Origin: a virus
Length of the DNA stretch: 64,000 nucleotides
IMG/VR virus record: IMGVR_UViG_3300029425_000240
Strand: one strand, 5' to 3'
The notes under the pieces were generated by a model. That model had not been told where the DNA came from and ran no database searches. It saw only the letters and a list, made by a program, of their open reading frames with translations. Shown piece after piece: positions 45,301 to 58,772 of this stretch. The position numbers and the translations under genes are program-made. Within the stretch, counting starts at the first letter, position 1, and every line of letters begins with the position of its first letter.

Positions 45301-45743
45301 GCTTCTGCACTTTCATCTTTGGTAAGTTCGGCTACCTTATCTACCATATCCATTTCGCAATTGTAAATAGAACCTGTATCTACCTCGCTGCCATTGATAT
45401 ACTCGTTTAATGAATCCGCATATCTTCCAAATACATCATCAGAAAAAACAATGTTGCTCAGTTTAGGTCCGAAATCGTCTGGTGTATCTGCGACTTTTGC
45501 ACTCTCGTCTGTTGCATAGTCAATCATTTTCTGGACAGCTGTATCAGTATCCTGTTTATCCTGGCTCTCCTCATCGTTCTGCTCTGCCTCAGACGCTCCT
45601 CCTTCTGTTTCTGGGACCTCAGCTGCGGTCTCCTCTACTGCGGTAGACTCGGAACCGTCTTCCGCTGCCATAACTACTGTGCCTGGCACAGCCATTGTTG
45701 CTGACATGCCTAAAAGCATGGCTGAAATAACTTTATTTTTCAT
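42315..45743 (-). CDS. large (1142 aa) alpha-helical/coiled-coil surface protein with C-terminal sorting signal (GVKTGDDNM + TM + KKFIKR)
   Basis: Signal peptide MKNKVISAMLLGMSATMAVPGTVVMA; long A/K/E/D-rich helical body; TAGGAGAT RBS. Confidence 0.65.
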   Translation of the reverse strand: MKNKVISAMLLGMSATMAVPGTVVMAAEDGSESTAVEETAAEVPETEGGASEAEQNDEESQDKQDTDTAVQKMIDYATDESAKVADTPDDFGPKLSNIVFSDDVFGRYADSLNEYINGSEVDTGSIYNCEMDMVDKVAELTKDESAEAIAASKYQVALTFESVYGEDAFMPGRDIRRALIADSSKDEDFAVCGTIAEADTVYISAGGTTAIPTTLFKAVSEQPENPDETGATDSPNDTDSVTKDEDQNGADDSTTEETPSDTTNPDTPGDVTTDSDSAEEEKRSLDEYVEGLDDIEIQLGDDLPSPRVSYDDTKVVSVSLDTSKVDKNTIGVYTISYIIKGVDGTTKIVNKQCAVSEDPVLKELRKQMCEKAGEIEKGKFTEKDFKSKWDEAVKAAKAEINKKKNEEEMQAVLDKLTETAASILNDQQLYVTKNGYVGEMYSKFESMEFVTDAQKNMANDVLKDAVAKIKKSETVEDAKQAMDEGIESIEKIAAQDNSSIDALKSEAKKKINAAMDGIKDKTTVLQNVYGSLIFKLDTCTTAKEIDSVTNSADSAFAHVKAAIEGDMDSMFALYKDLKGIAPDSDTTETIDEIILLGTPSDISDGEDKISDIHKAITSDVDEFTAYLTGRAGETISGETKAEAYAAYVKATNGTPDADLTKVKEDAKSEIQKALDEITSDNEEVTDKKGQIKDEVFKKIDAAASAEEVETIVSDAKSEIKDLKDEITNNEGLSSVKESAKKEIQNTVDNQSDEELKASIQQLAGAALKKIENAATEDEVKDIVEEFKSDVQTTTDAYKKDKELASVKADTLSKLSVLESKVKSEYVTADMNSIISTAKANIENAQSASECSKIYAQAKTDYNNAYLTSMRSAFNNKLDALLTEYKFTDDTYSQKAQEVINKQKENINKAKNETAMEKCYNLAKDNLAKLVNAQDAAAKLAQAKTDAIAKIKAMVTNPTDTSNKIIDTYTDKINKATSEDDINKLVDGCQQALKDAGVDASSTADASKLAQLRADAISTLQKMLDTVPSDKKEDAQKVFDSYVEKINSDTTEDAIKNDLEEGKTKLKKYGASDVTDNTPAPNGNTSTTLDGSGSGATEKGSDVATTSGVKTGDDNMGIIAIAGAAITAALAAAFISLKKFIKR

Positions 45744-45811: not shown

Positions 45812-46078
45812 TATCATTTGTCAGCGGCTAAAGCCTACTGCGTTCAGCCTTTACGAGACTTGGGTAGACGCGAGCACAGCTCGCGGTATCATCAATTGAT
45901 AACTCGCCAGCAGAGCCGGACTTGTTACCTGACTTCGAACGGGGATTCCGGCCCGTGTGCGAAGTTAAAACCGGGACATTTTACCCGCGGACGACTTTTG
46001 GTCGGCCTGGGGCTTTTCGCTCTCCGTTGATAACAAAAGGGTTTGTTCCGAGTTACCAATCGGCCGTATATGCCATGC
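45812..46078. repeat. repeat locus R6 (modules C-like plus B) inside the long 5' UTR of the 1142-aa surface-protein gene
   Basis: CGCGAGCACAGCTCGCGGTATCATCAATTGATAACTC...GTGCGAAGTTAAAACCGGGACATTTTACCCGCGGACGACTTTTGGTCGGCCTGGGG; a plus-oriented copy of the promoter box (TTTCGCATATTTTT, 45768-45781) lies just 5' on the plus strand. Confidence 0.65.
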
Positions 46079-46093
46079 CTGCATGTTCTCTAT

Positions 46094-46109
46094 ATTCAAT
46101 ATGCAAAAT
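46094..46109 (-). promoter_or_regulatory. conserved upstream box (TTTTGCATATTGAA) with GTGTTACA 17 nt further upstream
   Basis: ~355 nt upstream of ATG 45743 with repeat cluster 45812-46078 in between (long structured 5' UTR). Confidence 0.45.
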
Positions 46110-46149
46110 AAATTTTTTTTTGTAACACTTTTTCTTGACAATTTATTTT

Positions 46150-46192
46150 TGTCAAAAAAAAGATGACCGGACATTATATCCAGTCATCTTTT
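46150..46192 (-). terminator. rho-independent terminator after sortase gene
   Basis: AGATGACCGG..CCAGTCATCT stem plus T-run on minus strand. Confidence 0.5.
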
Positions 46193-46197
46193 TGCAC

Positions 46198-47034
46198 TCA
46201 TTCCGGTTCTACTCTTACGCCCTGTACTACAAATCTTGTTGAAGAATCGCCTGTACATGTTGAAAGTGTAACAATCTTATCAGTTTGTTTAAATTGATAA
46301 TCTCCTGTATTTATCAGCGATTTTGCCTTCATACTTTCACCATATTCAATAGTCTCTTTTCCCGGGCCCTTAATCAAAGTGTACGTATCGCCATCCACAT
46401 TTGCCACATACATCGCAAAAATCTTATATTTATATGCTTCTTTTGGCGTGATTACCCAGAAGTATGGACTTTTATCAATGGTCTCCTGCAGCTTATATTG
46501 TTTTAATGTTCCGAACATAGAACCATTCTTCATATTGTGCCCATAAACTATGGTATTCTGGTCGGAAAAATCTTTTGTGTTCTTGCAGTCAACAAAAATA
46601 GAACCTGCGAAAATAGATTCTTTTTTGTATGTGTGATGTAAATAAAAATCATTATCACTTCCCTGGACAATCGGGTAATTAATGTTTGGTAAAGCCTCCA
46701 TATAAAGCCAACCTGCTACATCTTGATTAATGCTCTTCAACTCATCAAAATTAATTTCCAACGGTGACGTCCAATGTTTGGTCTCATGTCCTTTTGCGTC
46801 TTTCAGTTTTTTTACATCCTCCGCGTCCGCATCTCTTTCTTTGACAACCGTGTCTGCAATTTCGTTGTACTCATCGACACCCGCTTTGTATTCCATCATG
46901 ATAGAATATAATTTATAACCAGAGACAGCGGCGACCGTAATCGCAACGACAAAAATCACAATCAAGACAACGTCGCTGGCTGTCATCTTCTTTTTTTTAT
47001 TTTTTCTGCTTTCTTTCGCTCCTATCTTTTCCAT
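46198..47034 (-). CDS. sortase (class-B-like transpeptidase)
   Basis: N-terminal TM anchor, His motif IVYGHNM, catalytic Cys in TLSTCTG, downstream Arg (STRFVVQGVR); GAGGAGG RBS. Confidence 0.75.
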   Translation of the reverse strand: MEKIGAKESRKNKKKKMTASDVVLIVIFVVAITVAAVSGYKLYSIMMEYKAGVDEYNEIADTVVKERDADAEDVKKLKDAKGHETKHWTSPLEINFDELKSINQDVAGWLYMEALPNINYPIVQGSDNDFYLHHTYKKESIFAGSIFVDCKNTKDFSDQNTIVYGHNMKNGSMFGTLKQYKLQETIDKSPYFWVITPKEAYKYKIFAMYVANVDGDTYTLIKGPGKETIEYGESMKAKSLINTGDYQFKQTDKIVTLSTCTGDSSTRFVVQGVRVEPE

Positions 47035-47100
47035 TCAGGCAGCGTCCTCCTCTCGTCTGTTTTCAGAAAAAAGCAGGCTGAATATATCAGCCCGCGCTGC

Positions 47101-48336
47101 TTATCTTCCGATAAGACTATTCAGATAATTATACAGTTCAGTGCTTGTTGCCTCGTCATAATCTTGTCCGTCTGTTGTACTAAATCCAGAACTTACAAGA
47201 TGATTGTAAGCATCAATAAACGGAATGCTCAGGTTCTGATACATGTAGGTATTAAATGTTGAAATCTTCTGGTTTGAAGTGGTGCTTTCAGCAGATACCG
47301 GTCCCACTGCTACAAAATAAACAGAGGCCCCTTTGTCCTGCCACTCTTTCGCTTTTGTATTGATGGAAGATGCGTAAGCCTGGTAGTTATCAAGGTCGTT
47401 AATGCCCATACTGATAAATATTTTTGTTCCATTTCCAATCTTTGTATCTACATCCGGGTATGCCGTGTCTGTCATCCATGAAAAATCACCAGATGCAGAG
47501 CACTCCCATAAATCAGACTGCCCGCTAGCGTAGTTTGCCATCGTTCGGAATCTCTCATCACCAAGGAAAATTACCTCTGCTGGCTCCTGTGACTGTGAGT
47601 CTGAGTCCGCAACAGTAGTATCACCGGTGTTCTCGGCTTCCGTACTGTCTGTTTCATTATTTGCATCAACAACATCCGTGTTCTCTTCTGTATTTGGTAT
47701 GTCTGTTGGTATTGGAGTGGCAGTAGGTAATGGCTTTGGCGTTGAAGTCGGCATGGCATCGTTTTCATCTGTACTGCCATCTTCATCTTCGTCAGTGGAA
47801 TCACTGTCTGCATCAGCACTGTCTGCACCGTCGTCGGTCTCCGTACTGTCGTCACCGAAGTCTTCTTCGTAGTCGCTGTCTTCACTTGCGCTGTCAGCCT
47901 CAGGCGTCGGTGTCTCTGTTACTTCGGCTGTTTGCTGCTCCTGATGCGTTCCTTCATTATTTCCTTTTAATTTCTGGTATGTACATACGCCTGCCGCTGC
48001 TACGGCCGCTGCGACAATGATTGCAATGATAATGATTTTCTTCTTTCCGCCGTTTTCTTCTTCATCGTCATCGTCGTCATAATCATAGTCATCTTCTTCC
48101 TCTTCCTCGTCATGGATTATTTCTTTTTTCTCCTTTTTGGTATTTGTCCTTTCAGTGCCCGCTGCGTTGTTAGACGTAGTCTTTCTTTCAGGTTTTTTAT
48201 TAACCCGGGTCTCTGCTTCCTCCTCTCCTTCCGGCTCTTCCGGTTCTTCATCAAGGTCGTCATTGGTTCCGCCTATCATAAAGTCCTCATCTTCATCATC
48301 TTCTTCGAGATTGTAATTCTTATCTTCGTCTTTCAT
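47101..48336 (-). CDS. acidic membrane protein with C-terminal SGNH/GDSL-hydrolase-like domain (nucleophile Ser replaced)
   Basis: Central TM (IIIIAIIVAAAVAAAGV); blocks VIFLGDERF (GDS -> GDE), GIND, DGQD resemble SGNH blocks I/III/V; AGGAGG RBS. Confidence 0.45.
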   Translation of the reverse strand: MKDEDKNYNLEEDDEDEDFMIGGTNDDLDEEPEEPEGEEEAETRVNKKPERKTTSNNAAGTERTNTKKEKKEIIHDEEEEEDDYDYDDDDDEEENGGKKKIIIIAIIVAAAVAAAGVCTYQKLKGNNEGTHQEQQTAEVTETPTPEADSASEDSDYEEDFGDDSTETDDGADSADADSDSTDEDEDGSTDENDAMPTSTPKPLPTATPIPTDIPNTEENTDVVDANNETDSTEAENTGDTTVADSDSQSQEPAEVIFLGDERFRTMANYASGQSDLWECSASGDFSWMTDTAYPDVDTKIGNGTKIFISMGINDLDNYQAYASSINTKAKEWQDKGASVYFVAVGPVSAESTTSNQKISTFNTYMYQNLSIPFIDAYNHLVSSGFSTTDGQDYDEATSTELYNYLNSLIGR

Positions 48337-48375
48337 TATTTATTTTTTCCTCCTGTTCTTTCTCTGATATCGTTT

Positions 48376-48391
48376 CGATGTATGCAAAACG
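48376..48391 (-). promoter_or_regulatory. variant box (TTTTGCATACATCG)
   Basis: 45 nt upstream of ATG 48336; abuts hairpin 48391-48422. Confidence 0.35.
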
Positions 48392-48424
48392 GCCAGCGCA
48401 ACAGAAAACTGTCGCGTTGGCCGG
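48389..48424 (-). terminator. hairpin terminator after lepB
   Basis: 14-bp stem GGCCAGCGCAACAG / CTGTCGCGTTGGCC (one mismatch, one wobble); short T-run. Confidence 0.45.
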
Positions 48425-48516
48425 AAGGAGTCCTGCATATCGACATCTTTTATTTTAGCATGCCCGTCTAGACCGGGCCCTGCCCATCAGAGAGTCGTTA
48501 CAGGGTTGTTATTTTG

Positions 48517-49089
48517 TTACTTTACCACCTTGAACCCCTTCCAATACCTGAAAGAAGCCTTGGCTACTATTTGGTCAGCGGATACATATGGATTATCCCA
48601 ATACCGTGAATCTGCGGATTCATTCCTGTTGTCTCCCAACATGAAATAGCATCCCTCAGGGACATTGAATTCCATATCGGGTTCTGTCTCCATTTTTTCA
48701 CGGATAAACGAATCATCGAGTGGAGTGGAACTGTCATTGATGTAGACCTTTCCTTTTTTGATTGTTACTTTTTCCCCTGGTAGACCGATGATTCTTTTAA
48801 TATAAATCATGCTCGGGTCATCCGGGAAATGAAACATAACAATATCAAATCTTTCCGGGTCGTGTCCAAACTTATAGGCGAGACGGTTGCCGATTACCCT
48901 ATCGCCAGTCATCAGTGTGTTTTCCATTGATTCGGATGGAATATAAGCATTCATAAGTACCTGCGTATATAATACGACCATTGCAACCATTGTCATAACG
49001 GCTATCGTCAGGTATACAACTATAGTATGCCGAATATTTTTTAAATCGTTCGTTTTTTCTTCTTCTTTTTTAACTTTATCTTCTTCCAT
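48517..49089 (-). CDS. lepB: signal peptidase I
   Basis: SESMENTL (Ser box), KRIIGLPGE, GDNRNESADSRYW motifs; N-terminal TM. Confidence 0.8.
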   Translation of the reverse strand: MEEDKVKKEEEKTNDLKNIRHTIVVYLTIAVMTMVAMVVLYTQVLMNAYIPSESMENTLMTGDRVIGNRLAYKFGHDPERFDIVMFHFPDDPSMIYIKRIIGLPGEKVTIKKGKVYINDSSTPLDDSFIREKMETEPDMEFNVPEGCYFMLGDNRNESADSRYWDNPYVSADQIVAKASFRYWKGFKVVK

Positions 49090-49107
49090 AAAATTTTCCT
49101 CGCCTTT

Positions 49108-50490
49108 CTATTCTGTTCCTTGTGCAGTCTGTCCCGTGATATTGGAATCATCGTAGACTATAATCGGCCAGTTGTCCTGAAATGTGGTGAATATTGCATT
49201 CATAGATGTCTCATCAACAGCAATGCATCCCTGTTTTACACCATTCGATGTTGCCGTTGCTGAAATATCTTCGTTTCCGGAGAAACCAGGCATCGCCGCA
49301 GTATCATCAAACTGATAAACAGCACCATCTCCGAAATACATGATATTTTTTGTACCGTCTTCTGCTGCTGCCTCTCTCAGCTTTAATCTATAGAATCCGG
49401 ATGAGATGTCTGTGCCAAGCCTTGCCTGACATTGAACCACTGGATTTCCATCTACGTATAAGACCACGCTTCCATGTGACTTATCAATTTCCAGATAAGA
49501 ATGACCGATGTCGTCTGAATTCCTGCTGACTGTACTCTGGCTGTATGTTGGATTCACAACATCAATTGTCTTATCTGTAATCATCTGTTTTAAATCCTGT
49601 GCCGTCTTTTTTATATCTATCTGCCACCCATAATCGCCTCCGGAAATGCTGGAAGTCCGATTATCATAGGTAACAAAGCTTCTTTCATTTCCAATTGTAT
49701 CATATTTTTCCGCTAATGATTTCACATACTCTTCAATCTTTTTCTGGCTCAGTTTAAAATCTTTACTGAGCATATTCTTTCTTATCGTTTCAACATCCAC
49801 AGTTTCTTTTCTATCCCCAAAGTCATATGTTATGATAACATCTTTGATTGAGTTTAAAAAGTCACACTGCTTTTGCAATTCTTTTTCATCTGTTTTTTCT
49901 GCTTCTTTGTAGCATCCTTTGTCTTCAAGGTTTACGCTCTTGTGCCATTGCCTTATGGACGTTTCTATCACCTGTTTTGCTTTCTCCCTGTCGAGTTCAG
50001 TTCCTATGACCTGCTGCGCTACCTGGTAAAACCCATCTGTGTCAACGATACGTGCGCTCTCAGGGCTCACCATATTGTGCATACATTTTAATTTCGCGAT
50101 TGCTTTTTGTATCTTTGCTGAATCTATCGCATAACTTTCCTCATCAAGATTATGTTCCTTTATTTCTGGCATAAACCATAATCTATAATCTTGATTGTTG
50201 ATGATGTCCACTAGTCCTTCTTTTCCATTGAACGTCATTCCTACATCTTTTGCAGTTAGTTTTTCGACCCCTCCATTCCTCGTATCTATGGCGATTGCGT
50301 AACTGCTGACTTCTTTTGATAACAGTGCCTCGGCCTCGTCAACCGTCTTAAACGCACAATGAAAACCGTTGATTGTAGTGCCTATTTTAAAATGTGTCTG
50401 AAAATACGCCATTCCCAGAAAATAGGATGTGCCCAGTATAATACATAGCGCGCATAACATTGTAATGATTATCTTTCTTGTTGTCTTCAT
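49108..50490 (-). CDS. membrane-anchored protein with C-terminal L,D-transpeptidase-like (YkuD-type) region
   Basis: N-terminal TM; C-terminal ...SHGSV...KQGCIAVDETS resembles the YkuD active-site region; start re-assigned to ATG 50490 after AAGGAG (track starts at 50511). Confidence 0.4.
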   Translation of the reverse strand: MKTTRKIIITMLCALCIILGTSYFLGMAYFQTHFKIGTTINGFHCAFKTVDEAEALLSKEVSSYAIAIDTRNGGVEKLTAKDVGMTFNGKEGLVDIINNQDYRLWFMPEIKEHNLDEESYAIDSAKIQKAIAKLKCMHNMVSPESARIVDTDGFYQVAQQVIGTELDREKAKQVIETSIRQWHKSVNLEDKGCYKEAEKTDEKELQKQCDFLNSIKDVIITYDFGDRKETVDVETIRKNMLSKDFKLSQKKIEEYVKSLAEKYDTIGNERSFVTYDNRTSSISGGDYGWQIDIKKTAQDLKQMITDKTIDVVNPTYSQSTVSRNSDDIGHSYLEIDKSHGSVVLYVDGNPVVQCQARLGTDISSGFYRLKLREAAAEDGTKNIMYFGDGAVYQFDDTAAMPGFSGNEDISATATSNGVKQGCIAVDETSMNAIFTTFQDNWPIIVYDDSNITGQTAQGTE

Positions 50491-50521
50491 TTTTTTTCTG
50501 CTCCTTTGCATATCGTTTTCT

Positions 50522-50537
50522 TACAGTATGCAAAAAA
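50522..50537 (-). promoter_or_regulatory. variant box (TTTTTTGCATACTGTA)
   Basis: 36 nt upstream of ATG 50490. Confidence 0.35.
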
Positions 50538-50546
50538 CAGTCTGTT

Positions 50547-51212
50547 TTATGATGCGTATTTCTTTAAAATCTCATAATATTCATTAATCTTTTCTGCCTC
50601 TTCATTGCTGCCGCCGGCATCCGGATGTGCGGTCTTCATAAACTGTCTTCTACGTTCTTTCAGTTCTTTTTCTGTAAAAGGCATCTGAAGTTTATAAAAT
50701 TCAAGTGCCATTTCATAATCGCTCTTCGTATTTGCTCTTCCAGAATAGTTATAAGAATAATCTCTCTGACCGGTTCCGGTATTGTTGTAACCATAACCGG
50801 CATTTCCGGAATTATATCCGTAACCGCTATAACCATAATATCGACCACCCTGCTGCTGATTTTGGTATCTTTGGTATCCATTTTCAGCGTTACTATATGT
50901 GTTATTGCTATCGCTATTATTGTCATGTGTATATGAATAATGGTCTTCTGCATTTGCATCGTTTCCTAATGCATACAAAATCATTCGGCAAATAAATGAA
51001 GGGATTATTATCAGAACTGAAAGGACAAGACCAAGAAGAGGATAGATAACCAATACAGAGAACAGTACGATAAAAACGTTCATGCCGTCTTTATTCACAG
51101 CAATCCAATGGCCGGTCATAATGATGCACATGACGATAGTGATAATTCGCGCAATATCCGGCGCATGATAGCCGATTACAGTGAGAATCTTTTTTAGGAT
51201 ATTTTTAGCCAT
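50547..51212 (-). CDS. membrane protein with Q/N/Y/G-rich low-complexity region and C-terminal J-domain (HPD motif)
   Basis: Two N-terminal TM helices; NNTYSNAENGYQRYQNQQQGGRYYGYSGYGYNSGNAGYGYNN; C-terminal LEFYKL...AHPDAGG...INEYYEILKK J-domain; sigmaA-like promoter upstream. Confidence 0.6.
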   Translation of the reverse strand: MAKNILKKILTVIGYHAPDIARIITIVMCIIMTGHWIAVNKDGMNVFIVLFSVLVIYPLLGLVLSVLIIIPSFICRMILYALGNDANAEDHYSYTHDNNSDSNNTYSNAENGYQRYQNQQQGGRYYGYSGYGYNSGNAGYGYNNTGTGQRDYSYNYSGRANTKSDYEMALEFYKLQMPFTEKELKERRRQFMKTAHPDAGGSNEEAEKINEYYEILKKYAS

Positions 51213-51245
51213 CTTCTTTCTCCTTTCTTTCTATTTTCTATTTAT

Positions 51246-51274
51246 ATTATACGTCATTTTTGAGATTGCTGCAA
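51246..51274 (-). promoter_or_regulatory. sigmaA-like promoter (TTGCAG-17-TATAAT) upstream of J-domain protein gene
   Basis: Near-consensus -10 TATAAT (minus strand) 17 nt after TTGCAG; ~30 nt 5' UTR; the conserved element box is absent here. Confidence 0.45.
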
Positions 51275-51343
51275 ATTTTTGCGGGTTAAAAGAAAAAATT
51301 ACCTAACTCACGATTAAAGTCACGAGAATGCGGAGGCTAATTT

Positions 51344-51378
51344 TTCAAAATGTCTACACGATGTGTAGACATTTTGAA
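51344..51378. promoter_or_regulatory. perfect 35-bp palindrome TTCAAAATGTCTACAC-GAT-GTGTAGACATTTTGAA (candidate operator)
   Basis: 16-bp perfect arms, 3-bp centre, ~70 bp upstream of the sigmaA-like -35; dimeric-regulator-site geometry. Confidence 0.45.
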
Positions 51379-51461
51379 CAGACTAAAACCGTGAACACCC
51401 CTCCCGACTACGTTACAAGAAATGGTAGCTTTGTCGGATGAGGTGTTCTGCGCTAAAGTTA

Positions 51462-51502
51462 AATAAAAAAAACAGGCTCGTTGATTGAGCCTGCCTTTTA
51501 TT
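51462..51502 (-). terminator. rho-independent terminator after pilin-like gene
   Basis: CAGGCTCG-TTGATT-GAGCCTG stem, A8 before and T-run after. Confidence 0.65.
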
Positions 51503-51508
51503 TAATCA

Positions 51509-51883
51509 TCATGATGTTCCATCAAGTCTAGTATCGTTAATCTTGGTAGTATCAATCACTGTGCTATCAAGTCCAAGATTTTTAACAACAGCCGCTACTC
51601 CCATAAGTGCAATTCCACAAACTGCTGTTTGTACCGCATCAGCTTTAGAATCCGCATCCGAACGTTTTGTGGCAAGGATAAACTGAATAACAGCCCAGAC
51701 AAAAATTGCAGCGCCTACAAATTTAAACATGGAACACATTAAGCTAATTAAGTTTGACATAACAGTCTTTGCTGTCACTGCTGCAAATGCCGGCACAATA
51801 AACATCATGCTTCCCAGCACCATTATCGCCAGGCACCATGCCACCTTCTTATAGTCAATCTTTCTTTTTGCTTTATTTTGCAT
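51509..51883 (-). CDS. small three-helix membrane protein (124 aa), possibly VirB2/TrbC-like pilin
   Basis: Signal-like TM1 plus two further hydrophobic helices; size and topology fit conjugative pilins (weak inference); CAGGAGG RBS; own terminator. Confidence 0.4.
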   Translation of the reverse strand: MQNKAKRKIDYKKVAWCLAIMVLGSMMFIVPAFAAVTAKTVMSNLISLMCSMFKFVGAAIFVWAVIQFILATKRSDADSKADAVQTAVCGIALMGVAAVVKNLGLDSTVIDTTKINDTRLDGTS

Positions 51884-52042
51884 TGGCCTTTCCTCCTGTT
51901 AGATTTTTTTGCGCTTTCTTTTGCGCATCTATATATTTATTTTGCAAAATCCAGGTGCTTTTAAAAATCGGGCCGGAGGATTACCAATTGAGGCAAAGCC
52001 CTGTTTTTTATCCCGCTTTTTTGCATCTCTTTTGCATCCATA

Positions 52043-52058
52043 TACAATATGAAAAATA
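52043..52058 (-). promoter_or_regulatory. variant box (TTTTTCATATTGTA) with GTGTTACA 17 nt further upstream
   Basis: ~165 nt upstream of ATG 51883; the 45-nt context is near-identical to box 46094-46140. Confidence 0.4.
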
Positions 52059-52109
52059 AAAAAATTTTTGTAACACTTTTTTGACCAACTTTTGAAAAAA
52101 AATTTTTTC

Positions 52110-52838
52110 TTATTTTTCTAGCTGAATCTGAGCGAATGTTTCTCCAATTGGCTCACGGATAACCAAATCTGCATGCATATCACGCGGTGACGGGGTTTTG
52201 TTAATCACCACCAGATGATTACCGTAAAAATAGTCAATCAAACTGGCGGCAGGCCAAACAGAAAGTGATGTTCCTCCAATGATTAGCACTTGCGCTTCAC
52301 GGAGTGCCCTTGCAGCCTTGGCCATAATACCGTCATTGAGATTTTCTCCATATAGTACTACATCAGGTTTAACGATTCCGCCGCATTCACAATGCGGTAC
52401 TCCATCAGAATCCTTAATGTAATCAAGGCCGTATGCCTTTCCGCATTTCGTACAATGGTTGCGGTATACGCTTCCATGCAGTTCCAGTACATTTTTACTT
52501 CCGGCCATCTGATGCAGATTGTCAATGTTCTGCGTAATAATAGCCTTAACTTTTCCAGCTTCTTCCAGCTCAGCTAATTTTAAATGTGCAGCATTTGGCT
52601 TTGCTGCATCGCATAACATTTTATCACGGTAAAATTTAAAAAATTCTTCCGGGAATTTTTTAAAGAACTGTTTGCTTAAGATTGTCTCTGGTGAATATTC
52701 GTATTCCATATTATACAGCCCGTTTTGGCTTCTGAAATCCGGGATGCCGCTTTCTGTTGAGACCCCTGCGCCTCCAAAAAATACAATGTTATCGTGGTTA
52801 TCGATTAGTTCCTGCAACTTCTCTACTTCTTTCGTCAT
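52110..52838 (-). CDS. Sir2-family NAD-dependent protein deacylase (sirtuin)
   Basis: GAGVSTESGIPDFR Rossmann motif, Zn ribbon CTKCGK...CECGG; start re-assigned to ATG 52838 (MTKEVEKL) after GAAGGAGG. Confidence 0.8.
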   Translation of the reverse strand: MTKEVEKLQELIDNHDNIVFFGGAGVSTESGIPDFRSQNGLYNMEYEYSPETILSKQFFKKFPEEFFKFYRDKMLCDAAKPNAAHLKLAELEEAGKVKAIITQNIDNLHQMAGSKNVLELHGSVYRNHCTKCGKAYGLDYIKDSDGVPHCECGGIVKPDVVLYGENLNDGIMAKAARALREAQVLIIGGTSLSVWPAASLIDYFYGNHLVVINKTPSPRDMHADLVIREPIGETFAQIQLEK

Positions 52839-52864
52839 TTCTTTTCCTCCTTCTTTTTTATATT

Positions 52865-52880
52865 TACAATATGCAGAATT
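52865..52880 (-). promoter_or_regulatory. conserved upstream box (TTCTGCATATTGTA), sirtuin gene
   Basis: 31 nt upstream of ATG 52838. Confidence 0.5.
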
Positions 52881-52932
52881 TCTTTCCTGAAATACGCACA
52901 ATTTTCTCTGTATGCAAAATAAGAGGCAGCCG

Positions 52933-53535
52933 CTATTCTTCGGCTGCCTCTTCACTCTTTTCTTTTTTCTGCTCTTCTTTCTTGCTTAAAAGACTGTATA
53001 TATTTTTATTTCTATCCAGTGCTATCAGGATAAATGCTGTATCTGTGTCGTTTTTGTACATCTTTGCCATTTTTCTATTGAGTGTAAATTCCTGATAATA
53101 CACATTTTCCTGTTCATCCTGAATCTTTACAGTTAGTTTGCCAAAATTTGTTCCATAGCCCGGCATCACATGATGCACTTTAACATCTCTTATCGTGTAC
53201 TTTCTTTCTTTGACTATCTTGTCAAGTTTTTTATCCACAACAGCAAAGCGGTATGTATTTACAATAACAATCATGACAAACACAGCAAGAGTGATAAAGA
53301 AATAAATGGTTATTTCTGATTTCGATTTTACATGGATATAAATATATACGATAATAAATGCAATCCCAATTATTGACCATAGAACAGATGCCAAAAGCTC
53401 CCTGCTTATTTTTTTATGCATTATATCTTCTATATATTCATGCTCTTCGTCATCTGGTGGATGAAGGCCAGCCACTTTGCTGATTGGCAGTTCACCCCTG
53501 CCGGTCATTCTGTTAAAAAAATTATCTTTCTGCAA
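52933..53535 (-). CDS. hypothetical membrane protein (200 aa) downstream of ftsH
   Basis: TTG start after GGGGAGGAAATTAG; two TM helices; K/E-rich C-terminus. Confidence 0.45.
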   Translation of the reverse strand: MQKDNFFNRMTGRGELPISKVAGLHPPDDEEHEYIEDIMHKKISRELLASVLWSIIGIAFIIVYIYIHVKSKSEITIYFFITLAVFVMIVIVNTYRFAVVDKKLDKIVKERKYTIRDVKVHHVMPGYGTNFGKLTVKIQDEQENVYYQEFTLNRKMAKMYKNDTDTAFILIALDRNKNIYSLLSKKEEQKKEKSEEAAEE

Positions 53536-55345
53536 TTTTTCTAATTTCCTCCCCTGTGAGTGTTTCCTTTTTCATAAGTTCTTCTGCAATATCCCGCAGC
53601 CTGTCAATGTTTTCTTTCATTAGTATCAGAGACTGCTCCTGAAGCGCCTTTGCGAGTTTGACCGCCTCTTTTGTAATGACTTCCGGCTTTACATCGAGAT
53701 TATCCAGATTCAGCAGTCCGAACTCATCATTCATGCCATATTCTACAATCATTTTCTTGATGATGTCTGTAGCCTTTTCAATATCATTTGATGCCCCGGT
53801 TGTAACTCCTTCCTCTTCGCCGTTGCTCTCTGTCAGCAGTGCTTCAGCGTTTCTTCCTGCATACAGCATGATTACCTGCTCTTTTAATTCTTTGACTGTG
53901 AATAATCCAAGTTTCTTTGGAGTGATAAAGGTTGCGCCTCCAGCACCAGATGTTGACGGGATGATGGATGCCTTTGTCAGGTCCTGACCAAGCAGGAGCC
54001 CTGCCAGCGCATGTCCTGCTTCGTGCCATGCTACGACTTCAATATTATTTCTTTCACCGTTCCTTCTTAAATGCCCTTCCATTAACTGTTTCATCCATGC
54101 TTCATCAAGGATTTTTCTGTCGATGATTCCGTTATTATCTCTTGCTGCAATAATAGCCGCTTCGTTTAATACAGTCTTGATTGTCGCCGGGCTGCTGCCC
54201 ATGGTTTCTTTTGCAAATGCATCAAAATCAACGTCCTCGGCAAATTTCTTGTTATTCGTATAAAGGTCAATAATAACCCTTCTTTCTTTTGCGCTTTCCG
54301 GAAGGCTGACTGCAAAATGGTTATCAAATCTTCCTGGTCTTGTCAGCGCCGGGTCCAGGTCTTCCAGTCTGTTTGTTGCTGCAATCACCACAACACCATT
54401 GCTTCCGTCAAATCCGTCCATCTCTGAAAGCAGCGTGTTCAGCGTCTGTCTGTCATAATTATTCTGTTTGGAGTGCCTACGGCCGCCCATGGAGTCAATC
54501 TCATCAATAAAGATGATGCATGGTGCATTGTTCTTTGCGTCGTCAAAAAGTTTTCTCATTTTGCTCGCTCCAACACCGACATACTTTTCATCAAAGTCTG
54601 AACCGGACGTTGCAATAAACTTTACTCCGGCTTCTCCTGCCACAGCCTTTGCCAGAAGTGTTTTTCCTGTTCCTGGAGGGCCGTAAAGCAGCACACCTTT
54701 CGGTATATCTGCGCCTGCTTCTTTATATTTATCCGGATTTTTCAGGAAGTCAACGACCGTCATGAGGTCTTCTTTTACCTCATCCAGGCCGGCAACGTCT
54801 TTGAATTTAACATTGCTTTTTTGTTCTTTCTTTCTGGTTGATTTTATGGAACCAATACCCATTATCTTTGTCATTGCATAGAATAAAGCGGCATACATAA
54901 GTAACTGAACTGCCATCATAATCGGCGTTTCATATTTCTTGAGCATTCCTGATTCTTTAACTTCTACGCCCTGCTCCAGCATATCTACTTTGAAATCATC
55001 GTATTTTGGATTTGACGTTGTATATTCTTTATCTTTTTTGTCATAGGCAGTGATGGTCTCGTCATCTTCATTCCACTTGATTTCCTTAATCTGCCCCGTA
55101 TCCACCATATCCAGGAATTTTTCATATTTTATTTCTTTTGGCTTTCCTGGCCTTCCAGGACCCGAACCGACATAAAGCCCAGCTCCAGCGGTAACTATCA
55201 GAACGGCCAGCATGATATATGAAATAATTTTTACTATCTTATCTTTCCCGGGACCCTTTCCTGCTGTTCCATCGTTCCTGCCGTTATCTCTGTCTGTTAC
55301 GTTTGACTTCACCGTATCTTTTTTTACGTTGTCTTTTTTTCTCAT
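53522..55345 (-). CDS. ftsH: FtsH-type membrane-bound ATP-dependent zinc metalloprotease
   Basis: TM1 - extracytoplasmic domain - TM2 - AAA+ (GPPGTGKT, Walker [12 protein letters not shown]) - M41 protease HEAGHAL. Confidence 0.85.
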
Positions 55346-55384
55346 TTTTCTATTGTTTCCTTTCTGCTATATTTTTTTTCTAAC

Positions 55385-55400
55385 TGTAATATGCAGAATC
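55385..55400 (-). promoter_or_regulatory. conserved upstream box (TTCTGCATATTACA), ftsH
   Basis: 45 nt upstream of ATG 55345. Confidence 0.5.
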
Positions 55401-55538
55401 TTTTGATTTCCGTTCGTTTTTTGCGAACAAAAAACTTGGAGATGATTCTCCAGGTTAGTCTTTGCACATAGCGAGAATTCTTAAGGCTTCAGCAAATATG
55501 GCAAAAAAGCTGCCGCGAAGCGGCAGCTTGCAAGAAAG

Positions 55539-56444
55539 TCAAACTATTTTATGCAAGGTGTATGTTTTTGCATCCTTTTTTCCCGTTCCTTTTGTATATG
55601 GCTTTACATATCCGACTTTCCCGGATGCATAATGACGGTAATGACCGCGGACAGTCCAGGATTCAGTCAGTCTCTGATGCGGCTTGCAGGCAAGACGATG
55701 TATTGTCTCCTCATTAAGCGAAACGATTTTCGTTCCGTTTAATACAATTGCCTTTTGTCCATATTGTCCATACTTTACATTTTCGTGATGCGATATGGCT
55801 TGCTCCTGTTTCATTTGGTTTGAAGGTTCTACCTGTTTGATTTCAGGGTTTTTGCTAATGTAGTTTAGCATTCCTATTGTCTTTAAGAACATACGAAATT
55901 CATCAAAAGTATCATTCATCAAATTATTACAATCTGACGAAACAAAATCTCGATATCCTATTCCGTTTTCGTTCGGCATTAAAGCACACGGCATGTCCAT
56001 ATCTCGGATTACAATTTTGGGATATGTTCCAGTGCGAGAACTGTTTGGATAAATAGTAAAACAAGCATTATAATAATATGTGGGATTATTTTCCTTTCTA
56101 ATATCAATAAAAGATTCCACTATGATGTCGTAACTATTTTCCCCAACATTTGTAACATTGAATACCATAGAAAATATTGAATCATCTTTATGTTCAATAA
56201 ATACCCCATTATTTAATATAGGCAAATATTGTAGTTGCTTATTCGCCAAATCAAGACGACTTATCTCTAATTCTACACGTTCTTTATCGACAATGATTTT
56301 ATCCATCTTTTCAGCTTTAGACATAAGACTTTTCAGTTTGATATCTGACTTCTTTTTCTTCTCTATTATCTCGTTCATTCTAATCTGTTCAAATATCTTT
56401 TCCTGCATTTTTCCTGCATATCCCTTTTTTCTTTTGATTTTCCT
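55539..56444 (-). CDS. hypothetical basic protein (~300 aa)
   Basis: Track ORF starts at GTG 56486 inside the promoter box; first ATG at 56444 (MRKIKRKKGY). Confidence 0.5.
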   Translation of the reverse strand, partial: RKIKRKKGYAGKMQEKIFEQIRMNEIIEKKKKSDIKLKSLMSKAEKMDKIIVDKERVELEISRLDLANKQLQYLPILNNGVFIEHKDDSIFSMVFNVTNVGENSYDIIVESFIDIRKENNPTYYYNACFTIYPNSSRTGTYPKIVIRDMDMPCALMPNENGIGYRDFVSSDCNNLMNDTFDEFRMFLKTIGMLNYISKNPEIKQVEPSNQMKQEQAISHHENVKYGQYGQKAIVLNGTKIVSLNEETIHRLACKPHQRLTESWTVRGHYRHYASGKVGYVKPYTKGTGKKDAKTYTLHKIV

Positions 56445-58675: not shown

Positions 58676-58701
58676 TTTTTGTCTCCTTTGTTTTTTCTAT
58701 A

Positions 58702-58717
58702 TATGATATGCGGGATT
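58702..58717 (-). promoter_or_regulatory. variant box (TCCCGCATATCATA)
   Basis: 31 nt upstream of ATG 58675. Confidence 0.4.
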
Positions 58718-58740
58718 TTTTGGAGAGAAGAAAAATTTGC

Positions 58741-58772
58741 GAAAAAAGAGCCTGCAGAATTTCTGCAGGCAA
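58741..58772 (-). terminator. rho-independent terminator after 59-aa gene
   Basis: Perfect GCCTGCAGAA-T-TTCTGCAGGC stem immediately after TAA, T-run on minus strand. Confidence 0.65.

What the first reader, a model, noticed from the sequence alone, without database searches (positions are those of the whole stretch)
50547..51378. Membrane-anchored J-domain protein with a prion-like Q/N/Y/G-rich domain, driven by a sigmaA-type promoter next to a perfect 35-bp palindrome
Architecture is two TM helices, then ~70 aa of N/Q/Y/G-rich low complexity (GYQRYQNQQQGGRYYGYSGYGYNSGNAGYGYNN), then a C-terminal J-domain with HPD. This is one of only two genes in the window using a canonical TTGCAG-17-TATAAT promoter instead of the element box. 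The palindrome TTCAAAATGTCTACAC-GAT-GTGTAGACATTTTGAA and a long imperfect hairpin (51395-51450) lie just upstream, suggesting separate, possibly host-sigma-dependent and repressor-controlled expression.
Basis: seen in the sequence. Interest (0 to 1): 0.55.

Follow-up and report, generated by a model that had tools for sequence, protein, structure and literature searches.

The report
Plasmid-encoded membrane-tethered J-domain co-chaperone
A common gut Blautia conjugative plasmid carries an unannotated membrane-anchored protein whose tail is a genuine J domain, the module that switches on the Hsp70/DnaK chaperone, while the striking palindrome next to the gene is a dispensable, strain-specific hairpin and not a control site.

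Summary
The ORF (50547-51212, minus strand, 221 aa) is real. It has an N-terminal two-helix membrane hairpin, about 78 aa of disordered Y/N/G/S/Q-rich linker, and a C-terminal three-helix J domain with HPD. Pfam DnaJ is below threshold. A family profile nevertheless hits Tim14/Pam18 (E 1.5e-7), and the AlphaFold models match almost only J domains.

The domain defines a large unannotated family: 721 clusters at E ≤ 0.001. Most carry the J domain at the extreme C-terminus, and about half of those sampled have the same membrane module.

Linker length (18-145 aa) and composition vary widely. "Prion-like" is therefore not a conserved property, and the window protein has only 21 Q/N per 80 aa.

The gene lies in a conserved block: pilin-like protein, J protein, PG_binding_4, signal peptidase I, sortase and adhesins.

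The promoter CGCAAAAA-TTGCAG-17-TATAAT is conserved down to clades about 35-44% identical. It stays distinct from the element's GCATATT[AG] box, and the element also encodes a sigma factor.

The perfect 35-bp palindrome and the neighbouring hairpin are absent from close relatives with the same protein. They occur nowhere else and sit about 120 bp upstream of the inferred transcription start. The operator idea is not supported.

The parts
50547..51212 (-). CDS of the 221-aa membrane-tethered J-domain protein. It is identical to WP_195656714.1, annotated 'MULTISPECIES: hypothetical protein [Blautia]'.
   Evidence: ORF list. Exact-sequence look-up. Found in 2065 blocks of the assembly collection.
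50961..51155 (-). N-terminal membrane module, residues 20-84. It consists of TM1, a short polar loop, and a long proline-containing TM2. Inferred topology is N-in/C-in.
   Evidence: Hydropathy. AlphaFold helices 2-39 and 46-84. Homologous module aligned in 29 family members, with an acidic loop and often a K/R-rich stretch after TM2.
50724..50960 (-). Disordered low-complexity linker, residues 85-163, rich in Y/N/G/S/Q, with seven [G/S]Y[G/S/N/Q] motifs.
   Evidence: Composition. pLDDT 25-31 over most of it. Large indels between relatives. No DNA tandem repeat beyond a 9-nt unit repeated twice.
50550..50723 (-). C-terminal J domain, residues 164-221. Helix I is 165-172, basic helix II 181-195, HPD 196-198 (nt 50627-50619), helix III 203-217. 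There is no helix IV.
   Evidence: Profile vs PDB: Tim14/Pam18 2guz_A, E 1.5e-7. Domain model pLDDT 90. Foldseek top hits are almost all J domains; 2guz_A has TM 0.76 and 41% identity. Viral J proteins also match. phrog_13942, E 2e-8.
51246..51283 (-). Conserved promoter: CGCAAAAA (51283-51276), -35 TTGCAG (51274-51269), 17-nt spacer, -10 TATAAT (51251-51246).
   Evidence: Sequence. The same layout is kept in L001-L008, L015/16 and L019-L028, and in weaker form in L010 and L013/14. It is not evident in L011, L012 or L017/18. Homology between alleles resumes at 51283-51287.
51220..51226 (-). Ribosome-binding site AAAGGAG, 7 nt upstream of the ATG.
   Evidence: Sequence; invariant in close relatives.
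51344..51378 (.). Perfect 35-bp palindrome (16+3+16). It is allele-specific, single-copy, and not part of the conserved promoter.
   Evidence: Absent in L002-4, L021, L027 and all distant loci. 0 hits in genome contigs. The only metagenome hit is the same locus. No other copy in the window or in other fetched loci.
51393..51448 (-). Imperfect G+C-rich hairpin in the same allele-specific cassette.
   Evidence: RNA fold of 51280-51510: -79.4 kcal/mol, z = -8.1. Unique in the window.
51467..51499 (-). Intrinsic terminator of the upstream pilin-like gene: a 13-bp stem followed by a T run.
   Evidence: Terminator scan.
51284..51599 (-). Hypervariable cassette. It holds the codons for the C-terminal ~30 aa of the pilin-like protein, the terminator, the hairpin and the palindrome. 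At least three non-homologous alleles exist between 94-99% identical flanks.
   Evidence: blastn breakpoints. Sequences of the alleles.
51509..51883 (-). Conserved upstream neighbour: a 124-aa protein with a signal peptide and two hydrophobic helices (VirB2/TrbC-like topology). It has no Pfam family.
   Evidence: Translation. 52-76% identical in all TM-type loci. Homologues are annotated only as hypothetical.
49108..50511 (-). Downstream neighbour: a PG_binding_4 membrane protein (probably starting at 50490; 460 aa as called in relatives). A degenerate element box GCATACTG lies ahead of it at 50531-50524.
   Evidence: Pfam E 6e-13. Gene calls in relatives. Sequence.
48517..49089 (-). Type I signal peptidase (S26) with the SESM, KRIIGLPGE and GDNRNESADSR boxes. 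It is the recurrent partner of the J gene.
   Evidence: Pfam E 5e-45. Follows the J gene, directly or after PG_binding_4, in window/L001-4, L005-8, L010, L011, L013/14 and L017/18. 38-70% identical across these contexts.

Best explanation
The gene encodes a class-C (type III) J-domain co-chaperone carried by a conjugative plasmid of Blautia.

**Proposed mechanism**
- An N-terminal helical hairpin anchors the protein in the cytoplasmic membrane, with both ends in the cytoplasm.
- A roughly 78-aa disordered, tyrosine/asparagine/glycine-rich tether holds a compact three-helix J domain near the inner face of the membrane.
- The J domain has a basic helix II, an invariant HPD, and a Pam18-like HPDxGGS motif. 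It would bind ATP-loaded host DnaK and trigger ATP hydrolysis.
- This would concentrate Hsp70 activity at the membrane, as DjlA does in E. coli and Pam18/Tim14 does at the mitochondrial import channel.

**Likely clients**
The gene is consistently embedded between a VirB2-like small membrane protein and PG_binding_4, signal peptidase I, sortase and very large surface proteins. An FtsH-like protease lies upstream. The most likely job is therefore to keep the element's own secreted or membrane-inserted proteins export-competent, or to help assemble the mating apparatus.

**Expression**
Transcription comes from a conserved sigmaA-type promoter (CGCAAAAA-TTGCAG-17-TATAAT). Most other element genes instead carry a GCATATT[AG] box, probably read by the element's own sigma factor. 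J expression would thus be independent of that factor.

**Palindrome**
The palindrome and hairpin are not part of this unit. They belong to an allele-specific cassette at the 3' end of the upstream gene.

**Shown:** fold, motif, architecture, synteny, promoter conservation, and dispensability of the palindrome.
**Inferred:** topology, DnaK partnership, the clients, and which sigma factor reads the promoter.
For: **J domain**
- A family profile hits Tim14/Pam18 at E 1.5e-7, and more weakly Ydj1, DNAJA1 and T-antigen J domains.
- The domain model has pLDDT 90.
- Foldseek hits are almost exclusively J domains; the top hit 2guz_A has TM 0.76 and 41% identity.
- HPD is invariant in the close family. 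It is present in 165 of 172 retrieved proteins; 135 have HPDxGG.

**Family**
- 721 clusters at E ≤ 1e-3.
- Of the 172 retrieved proteins, 153 have HPD within 35 aa of the C-terminus and 95 have an upstream TM segment.
- The membrane module aligns across 29 members, with an acidic loop and often a K/R-rich stretch after TM2. This fits an N-in/C-in topology.

**Synteny**
- Signal peptidase S26 lies downstream of the J gene in six distinct sequence contexts, including a soluble Zn-ribbon variant of the J protein.
- PG_binding_4 directly follows J in window, L005-8, L010, L013 and L031, with a sub-threshold hit in L029.
- The pilin-like gene lies upstream in window, L002, L005, L013, L029 and L031.
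- FtsH-like and sortase genes are in the same block.

**Promoter**
- It is conserved from CGCAAAAA onward across clades about 35-44% identical, while the sequence immediately upstream is replaced.
- The element box is present before about 20 other genes here and in the related element L007.
- The element encodes a sigma factor.
Against: - The Pfam DnaJ score is below the gathering threshold.
- The domain lacks helix IV.
- No biochemical evidence exists for DnaK stimulation.
- Topology rests only on charge distribution and on the logic that a J domain needs a cytoplasmic Hsp70. The second hydrophobic stretch is 39 aa long and could in principle cross the membrane twice, which would put the J domain outside.
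- S26 is missing from the immediate neighbourhood in L031. Two short contigs, L029 and L030, are uninformative.
- All these loci may be backbone variants of one broad element family, so conserved synteny could reflect common descent rather than functional coupling.
- A soluble Zn-ribbon variant exists, so membrane tethering is not universal for this J-domain type.
- Promoter assignment is by consensus only. The J promoter shares the CGCAAAAA-N24 geometry with five box promoters, so it might be read by the same holoenzyme.
Confidence: 0.6

Rival explanations
1. The low-complexity region is the functional core. It would be a prion-like or FUS-like domain that self-assembles into amyloid or a condensate at the membrane and clusters J domains, DnaK and clients, possibly with heritable or switch-like behaviour.
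For: - 78 aa of predicted disorder, with Y+G+S 44% and Q+N 25%, and seven [G/S]Y[G/S/N/Q] motifs.
- The sister clade (L005 type) and P0029 reach 30-43 Q/N per 80 aa.
- Hsp70/J-protein systems are the known handlers of such assemblies (general knowledge).
Against: - The window protein reaches only 21 Q/N per 80 aa. This is below the 30-per-80 criterion of Michelitsch and Weissman, which I recalled from memory.
- Across the family the linker varies from 18 to 145 aa, from 6 to 43% Q/N, and from 14 to 69% charged residues; P0063 is almost pure E/K/R. One close relative has lost about 66 aa of it. Selection therefore appears to keep a hydrophilic disordered spacer, not a particular aggregation-prone composition.
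- No PLAAC run and no experimental test were possible.
Confidence: 0.12
2. The protein is a host-manipulation or establishment factor rather than an envelope-biogenesis helper. It would capture or redirect host DnaK to change stress regulation, support plasmid replication, or counteract a defence. The phage RB43 J protein Rki, which stabilises sigma32, is a precedent, as are DnaK/DnaJ-dependent plasmid initiators.
For: - The sigmaA-type promoter, independent of the element's own box promoters, would allow expression straight after entry into a new host.
- Mobile-element J proteins are known (PMC3486835), and phage J proteins are structural neighbours.
- Sir2 and FtsH-like genes lie nearby.
- The soluble Zn-ribbon variant sits among DNA-metabolism genes.
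Against: - The membrane anchor is conserved as a homologous module.
- The tight, recurrent linkage is with signal peptidase, PG_binding_4, the pilin-like protein and sortase, not with replication or defence genes.
- No Rep or regulator partner was identified.
Confidence: 0.2
3. The 35-bp palindrome is the operator of a dimeric repressor that controls the J gene.
For: - It is a perfect 16-bp inverted repeat that cannot be chance.
- It lies in the intergenic region upstream of the promoter.
Against: - It is absent from loci that encode the identical or 96% identical protein behind the same promoter (L002-4, L021, L027), and from all distant clades.
- Its centre lies about 120 bp upstream of the inferred start, outside the -35/-10 region.
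- The half-site does not recur in the window.
- There were 0 hits in 185,579 species genomes, and the only metagenome hit is the same locus.
- No HTH gene is adjacent.
- Arms of 16 bp are much longer than typical operator half-sites (general knowledge).
- It sits in a run of three hairpins at the 3' end of the upstream gene.
Confidence: 0.04
4. The C-terminal domain is a degenerate J-like fold that no longer works with Hsp70. Pam16/Tim16 and other pseudo-J proteins are examples of this.
For: - The Pfam score is sub-threshold.
- There is no helix IV.
- 2guz_B (Tim16) is also among the fold hits.
Against: - HPD is invariant in the close family and present in 96% of retrieved relatives. Pseudo-J domains characteristically lose it.
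- Helix II is strongly basic (KERRRQFMK).
- The domain is by far the most conserved part of the protein.
Confidence: 0.04

Closest known systems
Pam18/Tim14 (DNAJC19 family), the membrane-anchored J protein of the mitochondrial presequence translocase motor
   Same: - It is the closest solved sequence and structure: profile E 1.5e-7, and 41% identity with TM 0.76.
- It has a short three-helix J domain at the extreme C-terminus and the HPDxGGS signature.
- The J domain is held at a membrane by an N-terminal transmembrane part, to activate Hsp70 locally.
   Different: - Pam18 has one TM segment with almost no linker. It works as a heterodimer with Pam16 at the TIM23 channel.
- Here there is a two-helix hairpin of a different family and a 78-aa low-complexity tether.
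- No Pam16-like partner was identified.
- The host is a Gram-positive bacterium and the gene is on a plasmid.
DjlA of E. coli and other Proteobacteria (class C membrane J protein, DnaK partner)
   Same: It is bacterial, has an N-terminal membrane anchor, carries the J domain at the C-terminal end facing the cytoplasm, and acts with DnaK on envelope-related processes (PMC8215388, PMC10754441).
   Different: - DjlA has a single TM segment and a central TerB-like domain. No such domain was detected here.
- The J domains are not specifically related.
- DjlA is chromosomal and proteobacterial.
Rki of phage RB43 and other phage-encoded J-domain proteins
   Same: The J protein is encoded by a mobile element and presumably uses the host DnaK (PMC3486835). 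Phage J proteins are structural neighbours.
   Different: Rki is soluble with an N-terminal J domain and targets sigma32. Here the protein is membrane-tethered with a C-terminal J domain, in a conjugative plasmid next to secretion and surface-assembly genes.
G/F-rich and FUS-like low-complexity regions; Q/N-rich prion domains
   Same: The linker is disordered and rich in G, Y, S, N and Q, with repeated [G/S]Y[G/S] motifs, and it lies next to a J domain. In class A/B J proteins a Gly/Phe-rich region adjoins the J domain.
   Different: - It lies N-terminal to the J domain and contains tyrosine rather than phenylalanine.
- Its Q/N density is below the classical prion-domain criterion in this protein.
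- Its composition is not conserved across the family.
RP4 TrbC pilin with the TraF maturation peptidase (S26 family); plasmid-borne SipP signal peptidases of Bacillus
   Same: A conjugative element carries its own S26 peptidase close to a small protein with a signal peptide and two hydrophobic helices. The comparison with TrbC/TraF and SipP is from general knowledge.
   Different: No J protein is part of those systems. Neither the peptidase-substrate relation here nor the pilin identity of the 124-aa protein has been tested.

Membership tests
J-domain proteins (Hsp40/DnaJ superfamily, class C) | J-domain fold: helix II and helix III form an antiparallel hairpin joined by a loop | tested here: met
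   AlphaFold domain model, pLDDT 90, with helices 5-12, 21-35 and 43-57. Foldseek hits in PDB and BFVD are almost all J domains.
J-domain proteins (Hsp40/DnaJ superfamily, class C) | Invariant His-Pro-Asp motif in the loop between helices II and III | tested here: met
   HPD at residues 196-198. It is invariant in alignment A1 and present in 165 of 172 retrieved proteins.
J-domain proteins (Hsp40/DnaJ superfamily, class C) | Significant sequence match to J-domain profiles | tested here: inconclusive
   Pfam PF00226 gives 17.1 bits, below the 27.8 cut-off. A family profile nevertheless matches Tim14 at E 1.5e-7 and other J domains more weakly. phrog_13942 matches at E 2e-8.
J-domain proteins (Hsp40/DnaJ superfamily, class C) | HPD-dependent stimulation of Hsp70 ATPase | not testable with these tools
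   Needs purified proteins or genetic complementation.
Pam18/Tim14 (DNAJC19) subfamily | HPDxGGS signature and a short C-terminal J domain following a membrane anchor | tested here: met
   HPDAGGS in the window protein; 135 of 172 relatives have HPDxGG. The best PDB match is 2guz_A.
Pam18/Tim14 (DNAJC19) subfamily | Heterodimer with a Pam16/Tim16 J-like partner and association with a protein-conducting channel | not tested
   No Pfam-recognisable partner among the neighbours. No dedicated search for a J-like partner was made.
DjlA family | Single N-terminal TM segment, central TerB-like domain, and C-terminal J domain | tested here: not met
   No TerB or other central domain was found in the Pfam or NCBIfam scans. 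The centre is a disordered low-complexity linker, and the anchor is a two-helix hairpin.
Q/N-rich prion-like domain | At least 30 Q/N in an 80-residue window (Michelitsch-Weissman criterion, from memory) | tested here: not met
   The maximum is 21 for the window protein. It is 30-35 in the L005-type sister clade and 43 in P0029.
Q/N-rich prion-like domain | Intrinsic disorder and low sequence complexity | tested here: met
   pLDDT 25-31 over most of residues 85-163. Entropy is 3.24 bits, against 3.8 in the flanking domains.
Q/N-rich prion-like domain | Self-propagating aggregation | not testable with these tools
   Needs PLAAC/PAPA scoring and in vitro or in vivo aggregation assays.
SigmaA (sigma-70 type) promoter | -35 TTGnnn and -10 TATAAT separated by 17 +/- 1 nt at a suitable distance from the start codon | tested here: met
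   TTGCAG-17-TATAAT, with the -10 hexamer ending 33 nt before the ATG.
SigmaA (sigma-70 type) promoter | Conservation of the hexamers and spacing in orthologous loci | tested here: met
   TTGCAG, TTGAGA or TTGCCG, then 17 nt, then TATAAT in L001-8, L015/16 and L019-28. Weaker versions occur in L010 and L013/14. The layout is not evident in L011, L012 or L017/18.
SigmaA (sigma-70 type) promoter | Mapped transcription start and dependence on the host sigma factor | not testable with these tools
   Needs 5'-RACE or RNA-seq and in vitro transcription.
Repressor operator | Position overlapping or abutting the core promoter | tested here: not met
   The palindrome spans 51344-51378. Its proximal edge is 70 bp upstream of the -35 hexamer.
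Repressor operator | Conservation with the regulated gene, and recurrence of the half-site | tested here: not met
   Absent in L002-4, L021, L027 and all distant clades. No second site in the window. 0 hits in genome contigs. One metagenome hit, which is the same locus.

The most novel reading that the evidence does not exclude
This would be a previously unrecognised, widespread class of mobile-element J proteins in gut Firmicutes that builds a bacterial counterpart of the mitochondrial import motor. A Pam18-type J domain would be tethered to the membrane by a self-associating tyrosine-rich low-complexity domain. It would recruit host DnaK to an element-encoded export and assembly site (signal peptidase, pilin-like protein, sortase, T4SS). 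There, Hsp70 would provide the unfolding or holding power needed to move giant adhesins or T4SS substrates, with the low-complexity domains forming a membrane-associated condensate that concentrates clients.
Probability: 0.1. Interest if true: 0.8.

Novelty: new variant of a known kind. Interest (0 to 1): 0.45.

Why it matters
**Chaperone biology.** J proteins decide where and on what Hsp70 works. Membrane-anchored bacterial examples are few: DjlA, DjlB/C, and alphaproteobacterial Pam18-like proteins. None is described for Gram-positive conjugative elements.

**Scale and annotation gap.** This protein is annotated only as 'hypothetical' in Blautia. Yet the exact sequence occurs in more than 2000 blocks of public assemblies, and the domain type defines hundreds of clusters. 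If it recruits DnaK to the plasmid's secretion and mating machinery, host chaperone capacity becomes a determinant of plasmid transfer and surface display in a dominant gut genus. It would also give a tractable bacterial analogue of the Pam18 arrangement.

**Transcription.** Most genes of this plasmid family carry an unusual GCATATT[AG] box and the element encodes its own sigma factor, while a few genes, including this one, keep a host-type promoter. That split is directly testable.

**Negative result.** Eye-catching perfect palindromes in intergenic DNA can be allele-specific passengers rather than control sites.

Tried and rejected
- **Nucleotide searches.** Megablast of 46000-56000 against PLSDB plasmids and INPHARED phages gave no match.
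- **Protein vs curated records.** tblastn of the J protein against both collections gave no match. The family is absent from curated plasmid and phage records.
- **Species-representative genomes.** The exact palindrome was not found, and the back-translated J family confirmed no relative.
- **IMG/VR.** One relative was found, L008.
- **Metagenome scan for the palindrome.** It returned only the same locus, L009.
- **Rfam.** Nothing credible around the hairpins: STnc450 and Thr-leader fall far below threshold and merely overlap the terminator. Nothing reaches gathering threshold anywhere in the window.
- **NCBIfam.** No meaningful hit for the J protein or its neighbours.
- **Tandem repeats.** Only a 9-nt unit repeated twice in the linker DNA, so the low complexity is not a recent DNA repeat expansion.
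- **MITE or IS200/605-derived hypothesis for the hairpin cassette.** Rejected. There is no second copy in the window, including near the TnpB gene, and none in unrelated loci.
- **Signal-peptidase site hypothesis.** A-N-A|E after TM2 looks like an SPase I site that could release the J domain. Rejected as a family feature because it is not conserved and the inferred topology places it in the cytoplasm.
- **AFDB fold library.** Not available.
- **Literature.** Searches found DjlA, Pam18, Rki and AtcJ work, but nothing on J proteins of Gram-positive conjugative elements. The survey by Barriot et al. 2020 is not in the library.
- **Neighbour annotation.** A homologue search with the 124-aa neighbour returned only 'hypothetical' or evidently wrong automatic names.
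Full report
**1. What is in the sequence**

The minus strand carries an ORF at 50547..51212 (221 aa). It has a good ribosome-binding site, AAAGGAG at 51226-51220.

Hydropathy shows two hydrophobic stretches, residues 20-39 and 45-84. AlphaFold2, run with the family alignment, predicts helices 2-39 and 46-84. It then gives an unstructured stretch (pLDDT 25-31 over most of residues 85-162) and three helices at 165-172, 181-195 and 203-217.

The unstructured part is 78 aa long. Its composition is Y 19%, N 18%, G 15%, S 10% and Q 8%. HPD lies at residues 196-198, between the last two helices.

Upstream features on the minus strand:
- the promoter TTGCAG (51274-51269), a 17-nt spacer, and TATAAT (51251-51246);
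- a perfect 16+3+16 palindrome at 51344-51378;
- an imperfect 24-nt-arm hairpin at 51393-51448;
- the intrinsic terminator of the upstream gene at 51467-51499.

The 231-nt intergenic stretch folds far better than shuffles, with z = -8.1.

**2. Is it a J domain?**

Pfam alone is not convincing: DnaJ gives E 0.006 and 17.1 bits against a cut-off of 27.8, covering profile positions 12-55 of 63.

Other evidence is clear:
- A profile of the C-terminal 61 residues from seven family members finds Tim14/Pam18 (2guz_A) as the best solved sequence, at E 1.5e-7. The alignment runs through helix II, HPD-GGS and helix III. The Ydj1, DNAJA1 and T-antigen J domains follow more weakly.
- The domain modelled alone reaches pLDDT 90.
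- Foldseek against the PDB returns almost only J domains. The top hit 2guz_A has TM 0.76 and 41% identity (the full-length model gives the same picture).
- The viral structure library returns phage and giant-virus J proteins.
- PHROGs gives phrog_13942 at E 2e-8.

HPD is invariant in the family, and helix II is strongly basic. The domain is a short, three-helix, Pam18-like J domain.

**3. The family**

The word-indexed search found 24 relatives. All share the same plan: a conserved hairpin, a linker with large indels, and a nearly invariant C-terminal domain.

The exhaustive profile search of 1.84 billion representatives found 721 clusters at E ≤ 1e-3 and 58 at E ≤ 1e-10.

Among the 172 sequences held:

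| Feature | Count |
|---|---|
| HPD present | 165 |
| HPDxGG present | 135 |
| HPD within 35 residues of the C-terminus | 153 |
| Hydrophobic segment upstream | 95 |

The membrane part aligns as one homologous module in 29 diverse members. It consists of an amphipathic N-terminal helix, a TM1 ending in W, a short acidic or polar loop, and a long TM2 with a conserved Pro. The stretch after TM2 is often K/R-rich. By the positive-inside rule this fits N-in/C-in, which puts the J domain in the cytoplasm. That is an inference.

A second architecture uses the same J domain behind a Zn-ribbon, a globular domain and an E/K/R-rich linker (P0052, 54, 56, 66, 68, 70, 71).

The window protein is identical to WP_195656714.1, 'MULTISPECIES: hypothetical protein [Blautia]'. 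It occurs in 2065 blocks of the assembly collection, on contigs up to 527 kb. It has no tblastn match in PLSDB or INPHARED.

**4. The linker**

Across the family the linker is 18-145 aa long, with Q+N from 6 to 43% and charged residues from 14 to 69%. One member (P0063) is almost pure E/K/R.

The window protein has at most 21 Q/N per 80 residues. That is below the classical 30-per-80 criterion, which I recalled from memory. The sister clade reaches 30-35 and P0029 reaches 43.

The window clade is notable for seven [G/S]Y[G/S/N/Q] motifs, which is FUS-like. There is no underlying DNA tandem repeat.

What is conserved is a hydrophilic disordered tether. The prion-like reading is possible for this clade but is not supported as the family's function.

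**5. Genomic setting**

The window is part of a large conjugative plasmid-like element of Clostridia. Genes identified by Pfam:

| Gene | Coordinates |
|---|---|
| ParM/ALP-like | 1557-2717 |
| 2440-aa protein with a C-terminal lysozyme domain | 5535-12857 |
| RecD2-like helicase | 14997-17225 |
| Topoisomerase III | 17256-19904 |
| VirD4-type coupling protein (about 35% identical to the CD1115 family in known plasmids) | 20314-22863 |
| Pol III beta | 26886-28037 |
| SSB | 30453-31307 |
| Sigma-70-family protein | 34549-35568 |
| Sortase | 46198-47034 |
| Signal peptidase I | 48517-49089 |
| PG_binding_4 protein | 49108-50511 |
| Sir2 | 52110-52955 |
| FtsH-like protease | 53522-55345 |

The order around the J gene is conserved: FtsH-like, 200-aa TM protein, Sir2, 124-aa protein, J, PG_binding_4, S26, 411-aa protein, sortase, 1142-aa protein. 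It holds in close relatives (L001-4, L019-28) and in a clade whose J proteins are 33-44% identical (L005-8).

More distant J proteins show these arrangements:

| Locus | Gene order |
|---|---|
| L010 | J, PG_binding_4, S26 |
| L011 | J, S26, CAP, ClpX-like |
| L013/14 | FtsH, ..., 121-aa protein, J, PG_binding_4, S26 |
| L031 | FtsH, ..., 145-aa protein, J, PG_binding_4, ..., sortase (no S26) |
| L017/18 | soluble Zn-ribbon J, S26 |

The S26 proteins are 38-70% identical to the window's.

The 124-aa upstream protein has a signal peptide and two hydrophobic helices separated by a charged loop, which is VirB2/TrbC-like topology. It is 52-76% identical across all TM-type loci. It is unannotated everywhere.

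The recurrent company of secretion, surface-assembly and membrane quality-control genes is the basis for the proposed role. It remains guilt by association. All these loci may be variants of one broad element lineage.

**6. Promoter**

Most genes of the element are preceded, about 33 nt before the start codon, by TTnnGCATATT[AG]. There are about 20 intergenic copies on the coding strand. The related element L007 has the same box before nearly every gene.

The J gene instead has GTATAATA at that position, with TTG 17 nt upstream. This distinction is kept in every clade with a recognisable promoter:
- TTGCAG, TTGAGA or TTGCCG, then 17 nt, then TATAAT in L001-8, L015/16 and L019-28;
- weaker versions in L010 and L013/14.

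The J promoter shares with five box promoters a CGCAAAAA motif 24-25 nt upstream of the hexamer. It therefore looks like a relative of the element's promoters that has been held at the sigmaA consensus.

Together with the element-encoded sigma factor, this makes host-sigma-dependent expression a reasonable inference. It is untested.

A degenerate box (GCATACTG, 50531-50524) precedes the next gene, and no terminator follows the J gene. The sigmaA-type promoter may therefore also feed PG_binding_4 and the peptidase.

**7. Palindrome and hairpin**

Alignment of the upstream regions shows that L002-L004, whose J protein is 96% identical, lack both structures and carry a different terminator hairpin. 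Identity resumes at CGCAAAAATTTGCAG.

L021 and L027 encode the identical protein and carry a third, unrelated upstream sequence.

blastn places the breakpoints at about 51599 and 51284-51287. The flanks are 94-99% identical. The palindrome therefore sits in a roughly 315-bp hypervariable cassette. That cassette also encodes the C-terminal ~30 residues of the pilin-like protein.

Further negatives:
- Distant clades have only a terminator followed directly by the promoter.
- The half-site has no second copy in the window.
- The exact palindrome is absent from 185,579 species genomes. A relaxed pattern finds only the same locus in the metagenome collection.
- The cassette has no other copy in the window or in other loci.
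- Rfam finds nothing credible.

The palindrome is real and non-random, but it is not a conserved regulatory element of this gene.

Its own role is unknown. Candidates are an extra 3' hairpin or insulator for the upstream gene, a structure used in single-stranded DNA, or a recombination scar. I rank it as a passenger of the variable cassette.

**8. Comparison and verdict**

By sequence and fold, the J domain is closest to Pam18/Tim14. By organisation, it resembles DjlA (bacterial, N-terminal anchor, C-terminal J domain), but it lacks DjlA's central domain. By genetic context, it parallels phage-encoded J proteins such as Rki (PMC3486835; review PMC8215388).

It is best filed as a new variant of class-C membrane J proteins. 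The new features are a new membrane module, a long low-complexity tether, carriage on conjugative elements of gut Firmicutes, and conserved linkage to signal peptidase and surface-assembly genes.

Confidence:
- about 0.75-0.8 that it is a functional, cytoplasm-facing, DnaK-activating J protein;
- about 0.35 that its clients are the element's exported or mating-apparatus proteins;
- 0.6 for the combined statement.

Interest is moderate. It is a solid, testable, widespread but unannotated co-chaperone family. The most eye-catching parts of the original finding, the palindrome operator and the prion domain, do not hold up well.

Noticed in passing
window, minus strand: e.g. 62346, 60786, 56497, 55394, 52874, 46104, 41169, 35870, 31387, 28100, 23988, 20216, 13383, 2800. 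Also L007 2228-19639.: A recurrent promoter-like box, TTnnGCATATT[AG], lies about 33 nt upstream of start codons. There are about 20 intergenic copies, and the box is conserved in a related element. Five copies have CGCAAAAA 24-25 nt upstream of the hexamer. It does not match the sigmaA -10 consensus and probably marks an element-specific transcription programme.
   Followed up: partly
window 34549-35568 (-): A 339-aa protein has a Sigma70_r2 domain (E 8.6e-11) and sits in an operon preceded by a GCATATTA box. It is a candidate element-encoded sigma factor for the box promoters.
   Followed up: no
window 51509-51883 (-); also L002, L005, L013, L029, L031: A 124-aa protein has a signal peptide (…VPAFA|AV…) and two hydrophobic helices separated by an invariant ATKRSDADSK loop, which is VirB2/TrbC-like topology. 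It is 52-76% identical across all TM-type J loci, has no Pfam family, and is annotated only as hypothetical.
   Followed up: partly
window 51284-51599: A hypervariable cassette has at least three non-homologous alleles between 94-99% identical flanks. It covers the C-terminal ~30 residues of the pilin-like protein plus the terminator and hairpins. The pattern suggests diversifying replacement of an exposed tail.
   Followed up: partly
L017/L018 8001-9601; proteins P0052, P0054, P0056, P0066, P0068, P0070, P0071: A second architecture carries the same J domain: an N-terminal Zn-ribbon (CxxC…CxxC), a globular domain and an E/K/R-rich linker, with no TM segment. In L017/18 a Peptidase_S26 gene follows it directly, within an element that has RecG-like, RNase T, methylase, HU and SSB genes.
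   Followed up: partly
L011 357-10989: A distant J protein is followed by S26, a CAP-domain protein, a ClpX-like AAA ATPase, Cas6, a protein kinase and a CARF protein. This is an unusual mix of secretion, proteolysis and CRISPR-associated signalling genes.
   Followed up: no
window 24924-26534 (+): This is the only long plus-strand gene in the window. It encodes a 536-aa TnpB/Cas12f-like protein (TNB domain, E 3e-16), preceded by a plus-strand GCATATTA box at 24892. It is probably an IS200/605-type insertion.
   Followed up: no
window 53522-55345 (-), 52933-53535 (-), 52110-52955 (-), 31466-32530 (-): The plasmid carries its own FtsH-like AAA protease with a small TM partner, a Sir2-family deacetylase and an SPFH/Band-7 protein. 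Together with the J protein and the signal peptidase, these look like an element-encoded membrane proteostasis set.
   Followed up: no
window 50947-50955 (-), residues 86-88: A-N-A|E directly after the second hydrophobic stretch fits the -3/-1 rule of signal peptidase I. It is not conserved in relatives, and the inferred topology places it on the cytoplasmic side.
   Followed up: yes
window 59470-59498 (-), within the 58676-59412 gap region: TTGACT-17-TATGAT is the other good sigmaA-like promoter on the coding strand. It lies in a 737-bp stretch without a convincing ORF and has no Rfam hit. It may drive a small ORF or an unknown RNA.
   Followed up: no
window 5535-12857 (-) and 42315-45743 (-): Two very large proteins are present. 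The 2440-aa protein ends in a phage-tail-lysozyme domain. The 1142-aa protein, next to the sortase, has no Pfam domain. They are likely cell-wall-crossing or adhesin components of the mating apparatus, and plausible clients of a membrane-localised chaperone.
   Followed up: no
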